From NCBI RefSeq assembly GCF_048403405.1, contig NZ_CP183129.1: a stretch of DNA of 64,000 nucleotides; one strand, written 5' to 3'. Position numbers and translations under genes: made by a program. This DNA is from Escherichia coli (lineage in GTDB: Bacteria; Pseudomonadota; Gammaproteobacteria; Enterobacterales; Enterobacteriaceae). Below are positions 18,074 to 22,012 of the stretch, one piece after another. Each line of letters opens with the position of its first letter. The first letter of the stretch is position 1. The notes beneath the pieces were generated by a model. It was not told where the DNA came from, did no database searches, and was given only the letters and a program-made list of their open reading frames with translations.

Positions 18074-18520
18074 ATGCGTACCGTTTTGAACATTCTGAAC
18101 TTTGTGCTTGGCGGATTTGCCACCACTCTGGGCTGGCTGTTGGCGACTCTGGTCAGTATTGTGCTGATTTTTACCTTACCGCTGACACGATCCTGCTGGG
18201 AGATCACTAAACTGTCTCTGGTGCCTTATGGCAATGAAGCTATTCATGTCGATGAACTGAACCCGGCTGGCAAAAATGTGCTGCTGAATACTGGCGGTAC
18301 GGTATTGAATATTTTCTGGCTGATTTTCTTTGGCTGGTGGTTATGCCTGATGCACATTGCAACGGGCATCGCACAATGTATTTCCATCATTGGCATTCCT
18401 GTCGGCATTGCGAACTTTAAAATTGCCGCTATTGCACTATGGCCGGTCGGTCGTCGCGTGGTATCGGTAGAAACAGCGCAAGCTGCGCGTGAAGCCAATG
18501 CACGTCGTCGTTTTGAATAA
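18074..18520 (+). CDS. yccF: Inner-membrane protein YccF
   Basis: 148 aa, MRTVLNILNFVLGGFATTLGWLLATLVSIVLIF... Confidence 0.88.
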   Translation: MRTVLNILNFVLGGFATTLGWLLATLVSIVLIFTLPLTRSCWEITKLSLVPYGNEAIHVDELNPAGKNVLLNTGGTVLNIFWLIFFGWWLCLMHIATGIAQCISIIGIPVGIANFKIAAIALWPVGRRVVSVETAQAAREANARRRFE

Positions 18521-18529
18521 TCCACTAAT

Positions 18530-20692
18530 ATGGCCTTTATGCTAAGTCCTTTGCTCAAACGCTATACCTGGAACAGCGCCTGGCTGTATTACGCGCGTAT
18601 TTTTATTGCGCTTTGTGGAACCACAGCGTTTCCGTGGTGGCTGGGTGATGTAAAACTGACGATTCCGCTGACGCTGGGGATGGTGGCAGCGGCGCTGACC
18701 GATCTCGATGACCGGCTGGCGGGACGTTTGCGTAACCTCATCATTACGCTGTTCTGCTTTTTTATCGCCTCGGCCTCAGTAGAACTGCTGTTTCCCTGGC
18801 CCTGGCTATTTGCGATTGGCTTAACGCTCTCAACCAGCGGCTTCATTTTGCTCGGCGGTCTGGGTCAACGCTATGCAACAATTGCTTTCGGTGCATTGCT
18901 GATCGCCATTTACACTATGTTGGGAACATCACTGTATGAGCACTGGTATCAGCAGCCGATGTATCTTCTGGCCGGTGCCGTCTGGTACAACGTCCTGACA
19001 CTTATTGGTCATCTGCTTTTCCCGGTCCGCCCGCTGCAGGATAACCTGGCGCGTTGCTATGAACAACTGGCGCGTTACCTTGAGCTCAAGTCGCGCATGT
19101 TTGATCCTGATATTGAAGATGAAAGCCAGGCACCGCTGTACGATTTGGCTCTCGCCAACGGTCAGCTGATGGCGACATTGAATCAGACGAAACTCTCGCT
19201 GCTGACCCGCTTACGTGGCGATCGTGGTCAACGGGGAACGCGTCGCACGCTGCATTATTACTTCGTCGCGCAGGATATTCACGAGCGTGCCAGCTCTTCT
19301 CATATTCAGTATCAAACATTGCGTGAACATTTTCGCCACAGCGACGTGCTGTTCCGTTTTCAGCGGCTGATGTCGATGCAGGGCCAGGCGTGCCAGCAAC
19401 TGTCACGCTGTATTTTGTTGCGTCAGCCTTATCAACATGATCCGCATTTCGAGCGCGCTTTTACGCATATTGATGCTGCGCTGGAGCGGATGCGCGATAA
19501 CGGCGCACCTGCCGATTTACTCAAAACACTGGGATTTTTGCTGAACAATTTACGCGCCATTGATGCCCAACTGGCAACAATTGAATCAGAACAGGCCCAG
19601 GCACTGCCCCATAATAATGACGAAAATGAGCTCGCTGATGACAGCCCGCACGGATTGAGTGATATCTGGCTGCGTCTTAGCCGTCACTTCACGCCGGAAT
19701 CCGCCCTCTTCCGTCATGCGGTAAGAATGTCGCTGGTGTTGTGCTTCGGCTACGCCATCATTCAGATAACCGGAATGCATCACGGGTATTGGATCTTGCT
19801 GACAAGTTTGTTTGTCTGCCAGCCAAACTATAACGCCACGCGCCACCGCCTGAAGTTAAGGATTATTGGTACGCTGGTAGGTATCGCCATTGGCATTCCT
19901 GTGCTGTGGTTTGTACCGTCACTGGAAGGGCAACTTGTGCTACTGGTTATTACCGGCGTGCTCTTTTTTGCCTTCCGTAACGTGCAATACGCCCATGCAA
20001 CGATGTTCATCACACTTTTGGTGCTACTTTGTTTTAACTTGCTGGGTGAAGGTTTTGAAGTGGCGTTACCTCGCGTAATCGATACGCTGATTGGTTGTGC
20101 CATTGCGTGGGCGGCGGTGAGCTACATCTGGCCTGACTGGAAGTTTCGCAATCTGCCGCGAATGCTCGAACGCGCCACAGAGGCCAACTGTCGGTATCTC
20201 GATGCCATACTGGAACAATACCATCAGGGGCGTGATAACCGTCTGGCGTATCGTATTGCCCGCCGCGATGCACACAACCGTGATGCTGAACTGGCGTCGG
20301 TGGTATCAAATATGTCCAGCGAACCGAACGTTACCCCGCAAATTCGCGAAGCCGCGTTTCGGTTGCTGTGCCTTAACCATACGTTTACCAGCTATATCTC
20401 AGCCCTCGGTGCTCACCGGGAGCAGTTAACTAATCCTGAAATTCTGGCGTTTCTTGATGACGCCGTTTGCTATGTTGATGACGCGCTACATCATCAACCT
20501 GCTGATGAAGAACGCGTCAATCAGGCATTAGCTGGCCTGAAACAGCGGATGCAGCAACTTGAACCTCGGGCAGACAGCAAAGAACCTCTGGTCGTACAAC
20601 AAGTTGGGTTATTGATTGCATTACTGCCAGAGATTGGTCGTCTGCAACGCCAGATTACTCAAGTTCCGCAGGAAACTCCTGTTTCGGCGTAA
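18530..20692 (+). CDS. yccS: Inner-membrane protein YccS (YccS/YhfK family)
   Basis: ORF of 720 aa; the true start may be the internal Met at 18539 (MLSPLLKRYTWNSAWLYYARIF...). Multi-TM N-terminal domain. Confidence 0.88.
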   Translation: MAFMLSPLLKRYTWNSAWLYYARIFIALCGTTAFPWWLGDVKLTIPLTLGMVAAALTDLDDRLAGRLRNLIITLFCFFIASASVELLFPWPWLFAIGLTLSTSGFILLGGLGQRYATIAFGALLIAIYTMLGTSLYEHWYQQPMYLLAGAVWYNVLTLIGHLLFPVRPLQDNLARCYEQLARYLELKSRMFDPDIEDESQAPLYDLALANGQLMATLNQTKLSLLTRLRGDRGQRGTRRTLHYYFVAQDIHERASSSHIQYQTLREHFRHSDVLFRFQRLMSMQGQACQQLSRCILLRQPYQHDPHFERAFTHIDAALERMRDNGAPADLLKTLGFLLNNLRAIDAQLATIESEQAQALPHNNDENELADDSPHGLSDIWLRLSRHFTPESALFRHAVRMSLVLCFGYAIIQITGMHHGYWILLTSLFVCQPNYNATRHRLKLRIIGTLVGIAIGIPVLWFVPSLEGQLVLLVITGVLFFAFRNVQYAHATMFITLLVLLCFNLLGEGFEVALPRVIDTLIGCAIAWAAVSYIWPDWKFRNLPRMLERATEANCRYLDAILEQYHQGRDNRLAYRIARRDAHNRDAELASVVSNMSSEPNVTPQIREAAFRLLCLNHTFTSYISALGAHREQLTNPEILAFLDDAVCYVDDALHHQPADEERVNQALAGLKQRMQQLEPRADSKEPLVVQQVGLLIALLPEIGRLQRQITQVPQETPVSA

Positions 20693-21284
20693 GAGAGTCA
20701 GCCCATTCTGCAAGCTCCTGGCGGCGTGCCACCGGGAGCGCAGCTTCATGAATGCCGATAATGGCCCCTTCAAGCATAAACAGAATCTTTTCTGTCACCA
20801 GACTGTTTTGCTGCCGCAGTCGCAACCAACACATTTTTGCCCCAAGTATACGTAACGCCCGTACATCCTTAATCCCCACCTCCCCGAGAATCGCTTCCAG
20901 ATGAAAAGACATATTGGGCAAATCTTTCAGTCTTTCCCGGGTATTGCGCGTGCTTTTCTCTTTCAGCGCTGCATCGAGAGAATATTTCGACAGACGCACC
21001 AGCTTCAGTTGATTTCGCCATAGACTTTCATCAACCCGATAGTAATTGAGGGTAACGGATCGGCCACACTTTTTATATGTCAGCCAGACAGGCGGATGTT
21101 TTACACAGTACTGTGCACTTTGCTCACAAGCCCGAAGATACAACTCACCATCAGAAACCATCGCAAACACCGTGTCGTCAACGGTCAGGCTGTAACTGCC
21201 AAACAATGATCGGTATTCAATTGTGCCCAACGTTGCCAGGTATTCTTGTGATTTATAGATCCGCTTATAGGAGAGGCTTTTCAT
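20655..21284 (-). CDS. sxy: Competence regulator Sxy/TfoX
   Basis: 209 aa, MKSLSYKRIYKSQEYLATLGTIEYRSLFGSYSLTVDDTVFAMVSDGELYLRA...; TfoX N- and C-domains. Confidence 0.92.
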   Translation of the reverse strand: MKSLSYKRIYKSQEYLATLGTIEYRSLFGSYSLTVDDTVFAMVSDGELYLRACEQSAQYCVKHPPVWLTYKKCGRSVTLNYYRVDESLWRNQLKLVRLSKYSLDAALKEKSTRNTRERLKDLPNMSFHLEAILGEVGIKDVRALRILGAKMCWLRLRQQNSLVTEKILFMLEGAIIGIHEAALPVARRQELAEWADSLTPKQEFPAELE

Positions 21285-21460
21285 AAAATTCCTTTTAAAA
21301 TCATAACATAAAAGAATGATTCACATTAACGGATCCGTTAACTACGAAAATAGGCAACTTATTCTTAAGGGGCAAGATTAATTTATGTTTTCCCGTCACC
21401 AACGACAAAATTTGCGAGGCTCTTTCCGAAAATAGGGTTGATCTTTGTCGTCACTGGATG

Positions 21461-21480
21461 TACTGTACATCCATACAGTA
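21461..21480. promoter_or_regulatory. LexA operator (SOS box) of sulA
   Basis: tactgtacatccatacagta: perfect palindromic CTGT-N8-ACAG LexA box about 23 bp upstream of the sulA start codon. Confidence 0.9.
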
Positions 21481-21502
21481 ACTCACAGGGGCTGGATTGA
21501 TT

Positions 21503-22012
21503 ATGTACACTTCAGGCTATGCACATCGTTCTTCGTCGTTCTCATCCGCAGCAAGTAAAATTGCGCGTGTCTCTACGGAAAACACTACAGCCGGGCTTAT
21601 CAGTGAAGTTGTCTATCGCGAAGATCAGCCCATGATGACGCAACTTCTACTGTTGCCATTGTTACAGCAACTCGGTCAGCAATCGCGCTGGCAACTCTGG
21701 TTAACACCGCAACAAAAACTGAGTCGGGAATGGGTTCAGGCATCTGGGCTACCCTTAACGAAAGTGATGCAGATTAGCCAGCTCTCCCCTTGCCACACCG
21801 TGGAGTCAATGGTTCGCGCTTTACGCACGGGCAATTACAGTGTGGTGATCGGTTGGTTGGCAGATGATTTGACTGAAGAAGAGCATGCTGAACTTGTTGA
21901 TGCGGCAAATGAAGGTAACGCTATGGGGTTTATTATGCGTCCGGTAAGCGCATCCTCTCACGCAACGAGACAACTTTCCGGGCTAAAAATTCACTCTAAT
22001 TTGTATCATTAA
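21503..22012 (+). CDS. sulA: SOS cell-division inhibitor SulA
   Basis: ORF 21497..22012 (TTG start in track); the ATG at 21503 gives [43 protein letters not shown]... (169 aa). Confidence 0.95.

What the first reader, a model, noticed from the sequence alone, without database searches (positions are those of the whole stretch)
20655..20692. Convergent 3' overlap of yccS and sxy (38 nt)
yccS (+, stop at 20690-20692) and sxy (-, stop at 20655-20657) overlap by 38 nt at their 3' ends with no room for a terminator between them, implying transcriptional interference or read-through antisense to sxy, a tightly controlled low-abundance regulator.
Basis: seen in the sequence. Interest (0 to 1): 0.2.

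Follow-up and report, generated by a model that had tools for sequence, protein, structure and literature searches.

The report
Annotated yccS–sxy tail overlap, embedded hairpin
The 38-base tail-to-tail overlap of the E. coli genes yccS and sxy is real but already annotated and ordinary; the one new item is a conserved RNA hairpin hidden inside the end of sxy that probably does the job of the missing terminator for yccS.

Summary
yccS (+, 18530-20692) and sxy (-, 20655-21284) overlap by 38 nt at their 3' ends. RefSeq annotates the same overlap in E. coli K-12, and the surrounding 60 nt are identical in 5232 of 5418 complete E. coli genomes with a match. The overlap is not more than chance gives. 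The conserved cores of the two proteins lie only 34 nt apart, and random 34-nt spacers produce an overlap about 92% of the time. Among Enterobacterales the junction ranges from a 47-nt overlap to a 70-nt gap, and the tails vary in sequence. E. coli has about 75 convergent overlapping gene pairs. Two RNA-seq papers already report sxy and yccFS as converging or overlapping transcripts. A GC-rich hairpin (20714-20739, about -19 kcal/mol) starts 22 nt after the yccS stop, inside sxy codons 182-190. It is conserved in seven enterobacterial genera by near-invariant synonymous codons and compensatory changes. It has no U tract and is followed by a C-rich, G-poor stretch. Its most likely role is the 3'-end stem-loop of a Rho-terminated yccFS mRNA. 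A regulatory effect on sxy is untested. Interest is low.

The parts
18074..18520 (+). yccF, the upstream gene of the yccF-yccS operon
   Evidence: ORF. Annotated as yccF. It ends 9 nt before yccS. The yccFS operon is named in PMC4161252.
18530..20692 (+). yccS coding sequence (720-aa ORF; K-12 is annotated with a start 9 nt downstream, giving 717 aa); stop TAA at 20690-20692
   Evidence: The TIGR01666 profile covers residues 11-709, so the last 11 residues lie outside the family model.
20655..21284 (-). sxy (tfoX) coding sequence, 209 aa; stop TAA at 20657-20655
   Evidence: Pfam TfoX_N covers 14-106 and TfoX_C covers 116-194, so residues 195-209 lie outside the domain.
20655..20692 (.). 38-nt convergent overlap of the two coding sequences. 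Codon position 1 of yccS faces position 1 of sxy, position 2 faces 3, and position 3 faces 2.
   Evidence: The 60 nt around it are identical in 5232 of 5418 E. coli genomes with a match.
20657..20690 (.). 34-nt variable spacer between the last conserved residues (YccS I709, Sxy L198). It is read on both strands as 11-residue tails that are poorly conserved between genera.
   Evidence: Alignment, tails, codon tables.
20714..20739 (+). Conserved GC-rich hairpin GCTCCTGG-CGGCGTGCCA-CCGGGAGC inside sxy codons A182-E190, starting 22 nt 3' of the yccS stop, with no U tract after it. Proposed 3'-end stem-loop of the yccFS mRNA.
   Evidence: Folding (-18.6 to -19.5 kcal/mol, against -5.7 +/- 2.8 for 34-nt windows of yccS). 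Synonymous-site invariance. Pair counts and RNAalifold.
20780..20939 (+). C-rich, G-poor tract on the yccS-sense strand (C 31.9%, G 15.6%). Candidate Rho loading (rut) region, judged by composition only.
   Evidence: GC skew -0.34, in the lowest 0.34% of 160-nt windows of the 64-kb window. The bias is weaker and variable in other genera.

Best explanation
This is an ordinary, already annotated tail-to-tail gene overlap. In the core Enterobacteriaceae genera the conserved parts of YccS and Sxy are separated by only 34 nt. Both reading frames run through that spacer as short C-terminal tails that are poorly conserved between genera, until each meets a stop at the edge of the other gene's conserved part. 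The yccS TAA lies across sxy codons L198-T199. The sxy TAA lies across yccS codons I709-T710. Stop positions drift by point mutation, so the overlap length differs between genera. Because there is no spacer, the element that forms the yccFS transcript's 3' end sits inside sxy. It is a 26-nt GC-rich hairpin starting 22 nt after the yccS stop, held in place by selection on sxy's synonymous codon positions. It has no U tract and, in E. coli, is followed by a C-rich, G-poor tract. I infer the following sequence of events. Ribosomes release at the yccS stop. Rho loads on the C-rich RNA and terminates somewhere inside the antisense of sxy. Exonucleases then trim the RNA back to the hairpin. yccFS transcription would therefore cover roughly the last 50-250 nt of sxy in antisense, as published RNA-seq indicates, but would not run through the whole gene. 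Shown here: the overlap, its conservation and drift, and the hairpin with its evolutionary constraint. Inferred: which strand's RNA uses the hairpin, the involvement of Rho, and any effect on sxy.
For: The overlap is annotated and species-wide. The ycbZ-matP-ompA-sulA-sxy-yccS-yccF-helD gene order is kept across Enterobacteriaceae, Erwiniaceae, Yersiniaceae, Hafniaceae and Morganellaceae. The junction ranges from a 47-nt overlap to a 70-nt gap. The alignment across core genera is gap-free except for one 6-nt deletion, and the tails vary. The chance model gives an overlap in about 92% of random spacers. For the hairpin: of 60 fully conserved 4/6-fold codon columns of sxy in 23 sequences, the only four with codon entropy of 0.51 or less are A182 (GCG 21/23), L183 (CTC 23/23), P184 (CCG 23/23) and R188 (CGC 22/23). 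All the others are 0.76 or higher. E190 is GAG in 23/23 and Q189 is CAG in 18/18. The chance that four random columns fall within 7 codons is 5.7e-5. 94.6% of cells pair, against 40-56% with slid partners. Two pairs change on both sides (GC/GU/AU, and AU/GC/CG), and RNAalifold finds the same helix. Yokenella lacks the hairpin and uses other synonymous codons for the same residues (CTG, CCT, GAA), so the protein does not force these codons. An outlier hairpin lies 3-36 nt after the yccS stop in Escherichia, Salmonella, Citrobacter, Lelliottia, Intestinirhabdus and Klebsiella, where it is inside sxy. In Chimaeribacter, Yersinia ruckeri and Proteus an equivalent hairpin lies in the spacer. The plus-strand version is more stable in 18 of 21 sequences. 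The C-rich tract is described. Dar and Sorek (PMC6061677) show that Rho-dependent E. coli mRNAs end just after stable stem-loops without U tracts, with rut sites just downstream.
Against: No 3'-end mapping for yccS or sxy could be retrieved. The held supplements of Adams 2021 contain neither the gene names nor coordinates in this region. The strand evidence is weak: the minus-strand hairpin is nearly as stable (mean -18.6 against -20.8 kcal/mol; only 0.5 kcal/mol difference in Escherichia), and the 21 sequences are phylogenetically clustered. Covariation is modest, since five of 11 pairs never vary. The C-rich tract is strong only in E. coli and absent in Klebsiella, and it could simply reflect Sxy's amino-acid composition. 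Several lineages without a spacer have no strong hairpin at all (ESL0689, L028, Rosenbergiella, Yokenella), so the element is not indispensable.
Confidence: 0.55

Rival explanations
1. One reading: the overlap is a functional excludon. yccFS read-through acts as antisense RNA or transcriptional interference that helps keep sxy expression low, and sxy transcription does the same to yccFS.
For: sxy-yccS is listed among convergent excludons in at least 50% of 58 MG1655 RNA-seq samples. The two operons converge in single-nucleotide RNA-seq. The tail-to-tail arrangement is conserved across five families of Enterobacterales. [quoted passage not shown]
Against: Transcript overlap occurs at 75% of convergent operons in E. 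coli, so it is generic. No reciprocal-expression or RNase III data exist for this pair. A selected hairpin right after the yccS stop looks more like a device to end or limit the yccFS RNA than to extend it. Conserved gene order alone does not show regulation.
Confidence: 0.15
2. The hairpin works in both directions. It positions head-on collisions of converging RNA polymerases, or pauses them, so that both the yccFS and sxy transcripts end near it. This would be a bidirectional terminator element displaced into a coding sequence.
For: The helix is stable on both strands (-18 to -24 kcal/mol). Outgroups with a spacer carry a hairpin between the two stops, which is the classical bidirectional layout. 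Wang et al. report that a nascent-RNA stem-loop is required for collisions at defined positions between convergent genes (bioRxiv 10.1101/2022.10.23.513370).
Against: In Enterobacteriaceae the hairpin lies 19 codons upstream of the sxy stop codon. Ending sxy transcripts there would give non-stop mRNAs. Translating ribosomes would also melt it on the sxy mRNA. There are no flanking A and U tracts. Both genes are probably too weakly transcribed for frequent collisions (an inference; not measured here).
Confidence: 0.15
3. The hairpin acts within the sxy mRNA itself, for example by slowing ribosomes near the end of the TfoX_C domain or by setting mRNA decay, and has nothing to do with yccS.
For: It lies inside the sxy coding sequence and folds on that strand too. 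sxy is known to be controlled by mRNA structure in Haemophilus influenzae, although at the 5' end (PMC2248739).
Against: In 17 of 22 sequences the U-G wobble on the yccS-sense strand becomes a C-A mismatch on the sxy strand. The hairpin keeps a short distance from the yccS stop. Lineages with an intergenic hairpin lack it.
Confidence: 0.1
4. Annotation artefact: one of the two tails is not really translated, because the true stop or frame is elsewhere, so there is no real coding overlap.
For: Both tails lie outside the family profiles (YccS model ends at 709, TfoX_C at 194) and are poorly conserved between genera.
Against: There is no earlier in-frame stop in either gene. Frames and stops are the same in all Escherichia loci examined. 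The junction region is nearly invariant in E. coli. Translation must continue to the first in-frame stop.
Confidence: 0.03

Closest known systems
Convergent (tail-to-tail) overlapping gene pairs of E. coli, e.g. dnaQ-rnhA; Huvet and Stumpf counted 75 convergent pairs among 663 overlapping pairs (PMC4161906)
   Same: Two real genes on opposite strands share their 3' ends. The overlap arose by movement of stop codons and is short.
   Different: Nothing essential differs. At 38 nt it is probably longer than most such overlaps, but I did not retrieve a length distribution.
Convergent 'excludons' or overlapping convergent operons (ExcludonFinder, PMC12288877; Conway 2014, PMC4161252)
   Same: This very pair is listed there, and the transcripts from both strands overlap.
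   Different: The defining functional property, mutually exclusive expression or RNase III processing, has not been shown for sxy-yccS.
3'-terminal protective stem-loops of Rho-dependent E. coli mRNAs (Dar and Sorek 2018, PMC6061677)
   Same: A stable GC-rich stem-loop lies shortly after the stop codon, with no U tract and with C-rich RNA just downstream.
   Different: Here the stem-loop is embedded in the coding sequence of the convergent gene and is maintained through that gene's synonymous sites. The actual 3' end and Rho dependence have not been measured.
Bidirectional intrinsic terminators between convergent genes (the SEnd-seq work from the Liu laboratory; only the follow-up preprint by Wang et al. 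2022 was read here)
   Same: One hairpin serves a convergent gene pair. This layout is seen at this locus in Chimaeribacter, Yersinia ruckeri and Proteus.
   Different: In E. coli the hairpin is not between the stops, lacks A and U tracts, and lies inside one gene.

Membership tests
Convergent overlapping protein-coding gene pair | Two ORFs on opposite strands whose 3' ends share nucleotides, each ending at its first in-frame stop | tested here: met
   20655-20692, 38 nt.
Convergent overlapping protein-coding gene pair | Both ORFs are real genes with homologues and family matches | tested here: met
   annotated.
Convergent overlapping protein-coding gene pair | The arrangement is present in related genomes, so it is not a strain-specific error | tested here: met
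   5425 of 5426 E. coli genomes carry the region. Overlaps of 11-47 nt occur in the Escherichia, Salmonella, Citrobacter, Enterobacter, Lelliottia and Intestinirhabdus loci.
Excludon | Overlapping transcripts from the two strands | not testable with these tools
   No RNA data were available here. Published RNA-seq lists the pair.
Excludon | Expression of one gene lowers expression of the other, by interference or RNase III cleavage | not testable with these tools
   No data were found in the searched literature.
Intrinsic (Rho-independent) terminator | GC-rich stem-loop | tested here: met
   Hairpin 20714-20739, -18.6 kcal/mol.
Intrinsic (Rho-independent) terminator | U-rich tract immediately 3' of the stem | tested here: not met
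   The following sequence is GCAGCUUCAUGAAU. The consensus scan finds no terminator at the junction.
Rho-dependent 3'-end stem-loop (Dar and Sorek type) | Energetically stable stem-loop after the stop codon, not followed by U-rich sequence | tested here: met
Rho-dependent 3'-end stem-loop (Dar and Sorek type) | C-rich, G-poor (rut-like) RNA just downstream | tested here: inconclusive
   Strong in E. coli (skew -0.34, lowest 0.34% of windows) but variable in other genera and absent in Klebsiella. Composition only.
Rho-dependent 3'-end stem-loop (Dar and Sorek type) | Steady-state RNA 3' end at the base of the stem, with read-through increased by bicyclomycin | not testable with these tools
   The Dar and Sorek supplements are not held. 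The held Adams 2021 supplements have no entry.
Conserved RNA secondary structure | Base pairs maintained across species, with compensatory changes and constraint beyond the protein code | tested here: met
   Covariation is modest (2 of 11 pairs with changes on both sides) but synonymous-site invariance is strong. There is no Rfam match.
Bidirectional terminator between convergent genes | Hairpin located between the two stop codons, flanked by an A tract and a U tract | tested here: not met
   In E. coli the hairpin lies inside sxy and has no such tracts. The layout is met only in outgroups.

The most novel reading that the evidence does not exclude
When the short spacer between sxy and yccS, which in Yersiniaceae and Proteus still carries a hairpin, was lost in the ancestor of the core Enterobacteriaceae, the 3'-end or terminator function moved into the sxy coding sequence. 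There it is kept by selection on synonymous codons, and it shields most of the sxy gene from yccFS antisense transcription. Tatumella may have acquired a different embedded hairpin independently. This would be a clean natural example of a transcript-end element migrating into, and constraining, a neighbouring gene's codons.
Probability: 0.3. Interest if true: 0.45.

Novelty: already known. Interest (0 to 1): 0.25.

Why it matters
The overlap itself changes nothing, because it is in the reference annotation and in published excludon lists. The embedded hairpin matters modestly. It shows that "no intergenic space" does not mean "no 3'-end signal". It explains a patch of frozen synonymous codons in sxy. 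It also gives a concrete, testable handle (K-12 1,021,683-1,021,708) for asking whether yccFS read-through affects the poorly understood expression of the competence regulator Sxy. Anyone recoding or deleting the 3' end of sxy should be aware of it.

Tried and rejected
- **Consensus terminator and promoter scan of 20000-21600.** Nothing was found at the junction.
- **Rfam at a permissive threshold over 19800-21700.** The only hit was a spurious snoRNA match at E=0.21.
- **Possible sxy 3'-UTR structure antisense to yccS.** The region 20520-20654 on the minus strand folds with z=-3.4. I rejected it as a conserved element because the last 75 yccS codons show no synonymous constraint, and only 4 of 136 conserved columns are low-entropy and scattered.
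- **Published 3'-end maps.**
  - The Adams 2021 supplements hold no sxy, yccS or tfoX entry and no coordinates 10215xx-10218xx.
  - The Dar and Sorek, Conway and ExcludonFinder supplements are not held.
  - A full-text search for 'yccS' alone returned mostly unrelated acronyms.
- **Strand assignment from G-U asymmetry.** It favours the yccS-sense strand in 18 of 21 sequences, but by only 0.5 kcal/mol in Escherichia, so I treat it as weak.
- **Conservation of the C-rich tract.** It is variable across genera, so I did not use it as evidence outside E. coli.
- **Within-species identity counts for 60-nt windows.** These depend on which allele the window strain carries. I used them only to show that the overlap is species-wide.
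- **CRP-S site reading of the palindrome.** I rejected it by inspection: the Salmonella core GCGA-N4-TCGC has the wrong spacing for the TGCGA-N6-TCGCA site.
- **Repeat-element reading.** I rejected it because the 60-nt hairpin region occurs once per genome.
Full report
**1. What the window is**

The region is a stretch of the E. coli chromosome. It is 100% identical to strain 7/2 and is present in 5425 of 5426 complete E. coli genomes. The local gene order is helD, yccF, yccS, sxy, sulA, ompA, matP. In window orientation, yccF and yccS lie on the + strand and sxy on the - strand.

**2. Checking the observation**

- The ORF listing gives yccS at 18530..20692 (+, 720 aa) and sxy at 20655..21284 (-, 209 aa).
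- The terminal codons read ...ITQVPQETPVSA-TAA for yccS and ...SLTPKQEFPAELE-TAA for sxy. The shared stretch 20655-20692 is 38 nt.
- YccS matches TIGR01666 at 1260 bits over residues 11-709. Sxy carries TfoX_N (14-106) and TfoX_C (116-194).
- RefSeq annotates exactly this overlap in strain 7/2. It also does so in K-12 MG1655, with sxy at 1021138..1021767 and yccS at 1021730..1023883.
- The 60 nt around the overlap are identical in 5232 of the 5418 genomes with a match.

**3. Is it more than chance?**

It is not. The last residues conserved between genera are YccS I709 and Sxy L198, which are 34 nt apart (20657-20690).

- Both ORFs read across this spacer as 11-residue tails that lie outside the family profiles.
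- Replacing the spacer with shuffled or random sequence gives some overlap in about 92% of trials and at least 38 nt in about 75%. In the flanking sequence each frame stays open for a long way.
- The yccS TAA is built from sxy codons L198-T199 (CTT ACG). The sxy TAA is built from yccS codons I709-T710 (ATT ACT). Each ORF therefore stops at the edge of the other's conserved part.
- In the overlap, codon position 1 faces position 1, 2 faces 3, and 3 faces 2, so no site is synonymous in both genes.

For context, E. coli has 663 overlapping adjacent gene pairs, of which 75 are convergent (PMC4161906).

**4. Comparative picture**

The gene order ycbZ-matP-ompA-sulA-sxy-yccS-yccF-helD is kept widely in Enterobacterales. 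Plesiomonas is an exception: its sxy is not next to yccS.

| Lineage | Junction |
|---|---|
| Escherichia | overlap 38 or 41 nt |
| Citrobacter | overlap 11, 23, 32 or 47 nt |
| Intestinirhabdus | overlap 35 nt |
| Enterobacter, Lelliottia | overlap 44 nt |
| Salmonella | overlap 14 nt |
| Tatumella, Rosenbergiella | overlap 26 nt |
| Enterobacteriaceae ESL0689, Yokenella | overlap 4 nt |
| Unnamed metagenomic relative (L028) | gap 2 nt |
| Klebsiella (true reading frame) | gap 10 nt |
| Edwardsiella | gap 25 nt |
| Yersinia ruckeri | gap 36 nt |
| Chimaeribacter | gap 44 nt |
| Proteus | gap 70 nt |

Across the core Enterobacteriaceae the DNA alignment of the junction has no gaps except one 6-nt deletion in C. 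koseri. All their overlap lengths are congruent to 2 modulo 3, and the tail sequences differ freely. This is the pattern expected from stop codons drifting by point mutation across a short spacer that is under little protein-level constraint between genera.

**5. Where do the transcripts end?**

No hairpin-plus-U-tract terminator lies at the junction, and no Rfam family matches there. Folding does show a strong GC-rich hairpin at 20714-20739 on the + strand: GCTCCTGG-CGGCGTGCCA-CCGGGAGC. It starts 22 nt after the yccS stop, inside sxy codons A182-E190. Four lines of evidence say this hairpin is under selection.

- **Frozen synonymous codons.** I examined 60 sxy codon columns that are fully conserved and 4- or 6-fold degenerate, across 23 enterobacterial sequences.
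  - Only four have codon entropy of 0.51 or less: A182 (GCG 21/23), L183 (CTC 23/23), P184 (CCG 23/23) and R188 (CGC 22/23). These are exactly the stem arms.
  - The other 56 columns are at 0.76 or higher, with a mean of 1.6.
  - E190 is GAG in 23/23 and Q189 is CAG in 18/18.
  - Four random columns fall within 7 codons with probability 5.7e-5.
  - In the last 300 codons of yccS, only 4 of 136 such columns are comparably low, and they are scattered.
- **Pairing is maintained.**
  - The helix pairs in 94.6% of cells, against 40-56% when partners are slid.
  - Two pairs change on both sides: GC 19 / GU 1 / AU 2, and AU 7 / GC 7 / GU 2 / CG 1.
  - RNAalifold predicts the same helix independently.
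  - Salmonella, Klebsiella and most Citrobacter have a perfect 11-bp stem.
- **The protein does not force these codons.** Yokenella keeps the residues A-L-P...R-K-E-L but uses CTG, CCT and GAA, and it has no hairpin.
- **The hairpin is an outlier in stability.** It folds at -19 to -25 kcal/mol, while 34-nt windows of yccS coding sequence average about -6 +/- 3. It lies 8-36 nt after the yccS stop in Escherichia, Salmonella, Citrobacter, Lelliottia, Intestinirhabdus and Klebsiella (Enterobacter is the seventh genus with the hairpin, seen in the alignments). The lineages that still have a spacer (Chimaeribacter, Y. ruckeri, Proteus) carry their strongest hairpin in the spacer instead. Tatumella has a different, perfect 13-bp hairpin further inside sxy.

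**6. Proposed mechanism**

- The hairpin is followed by GCAGCUUCAUGAAU, so it has no U tract and is not a canonical intrinsic terminator.
- In E. coli the 160 nt from 20780 to 20939 on the yccS-sense strand are 31.9% C and 15.6% G. This is the lowest 0.34% of such windows in the 64-kb window.
- The layout matches what Dar and Sorek describe for Rho-dependent E. coli mRNAs. There, 3' ends sit just after stable stem-loops without U tracts, the loops protect against PNPase and RNase II, and rut sites lie just downstream (PMC6061677).
- I therefore propose that yccFS transcription continues past the stop into the antisense of sxy, is stopped by Rho within the next few hundred nucleotides, and is trimmed back to the hairpin.

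The weak points are these:

- No 3'-end data could be retrieved.
- The strand preference is slight: + is more stable in 18 of 21 sequences, but by only 0.5 kcal/mol in Escherichia.
- The C-rich tract is not conserved in all genera.
- Some lineages without a spacer have no strong hairpin.

**7.

Transcript overlap at this pair is already published.

- ExcludonFinder lists sxy-yccS among 165 convergent excludons present in at least half of 58 MG1655 RNA-seq samples (PMC12288877).
- Such overlap is the norm: 276 of 370 convergent operons overlap, by 286 nt on average.

It therefore does not single out sxy. I found no paper linking antisense transcription to sxy control.

**8. Comparison with known systems and novelty**

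The pair is a member of the class of convergent overlapping genes, and every defining feature I could test is met. It is listed as an excludon, but the functional criterion has not been tested. The hairpin fails the U-tract criterion for an intrinsic terminator. It also fails the positional criterion for a bidirectional terminator. It fits the sequence criteria for a Rho-dependent 3'-end stem-loop, whose experimental criteria I could not test. The overlap itself is already known. I found no description of the embedded hairpin in the papers I could search, which is not an exhaustive check. If real, it would be a new member of a known kind.

**9. Verdict**

This is a correct but ordinary observation and it deserves low interest (0.25). 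The only added value is the conserved hairpin in the sxy coding sequence and the specific experiment it suggests.

Noticed in passing
window 20520-20654, - strand: The RNA downstream of the sxy stop (antisense to yccS) folds unusually well in E. coli (-48.2 kcal/mol, z=-3.4, 1 of 200 shuffles). The underlying yccS codons show no synonymous constraint across genera, so it is probably not a conserved element.
   Followed up: partly
L027 (Tatumella), sxy codons aligned to E. coli 176-185, about 73 nt after the yccS stop: A perfect 13-bp hairpin (TCTGGCCAGCAC ttcc TGGTGCTGGCCAGA, -26 kcal/mol) lies inside the sxy coding sequence at a different position from the enterobacterial one. It may be an independent embedded 3'-end element. 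Only one Tatumella locus was available.
   Followed up: partly
L034 (Klebsiella, GCA_900119605.1), sxy at 3001-3621: The called Sxy protein (P0150) matches only TfoX_N. The conserved C-terminal half is in another frame, so this record carries a frameshift in sxy, either a pseudogene or a sequencing error. In the true frame the genes are 10 nt apart.
   Followed up: partly
L036 (Yokenella regensburgei), sxy codons aligned to E. coli 182-190: The same amino acids are encoded by other synonymous codons (CTG, CCT, GAA) and the hairpin is absent. This is a natural loss that could serve as a comparison strain.
   Followed up: yes
L023 (276-bp contig in an Alkalicoccobacillus porphyridii assembly): A 276-bp, low-coverage contig is 99% identical to E. 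coli sxy. This is almost certainly E. coli contamination of a Bacillaceae assembly.
   Followed up: no
window 18530 versus K-12 annotation: PGAP annotates yccS with the ATG at 18530 (720 aa, strain 7/2), whereas K-12 MG1655 is annotated 9 nt shorter (717 aa). The true start was not examined.
   Followed up: no
window 20300-21000 in E. coli genomes: Four of the 5427 matching places for this chromosomal region are on records labelled as plasmids, and some genomes hold two places. These are probably mislabelled replicons or duplications. They were not examined.
   Followed up: no
window 20745-20750 (TTCATG; sxy H179-E180): The bases just 3' of the hairpin on the + strand are also nearly invariant (H179 CAT 23/23, E180 GAA 19/23). 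The constrained patch may therefore extend a few bases beyond the stem.
   Followed up: no
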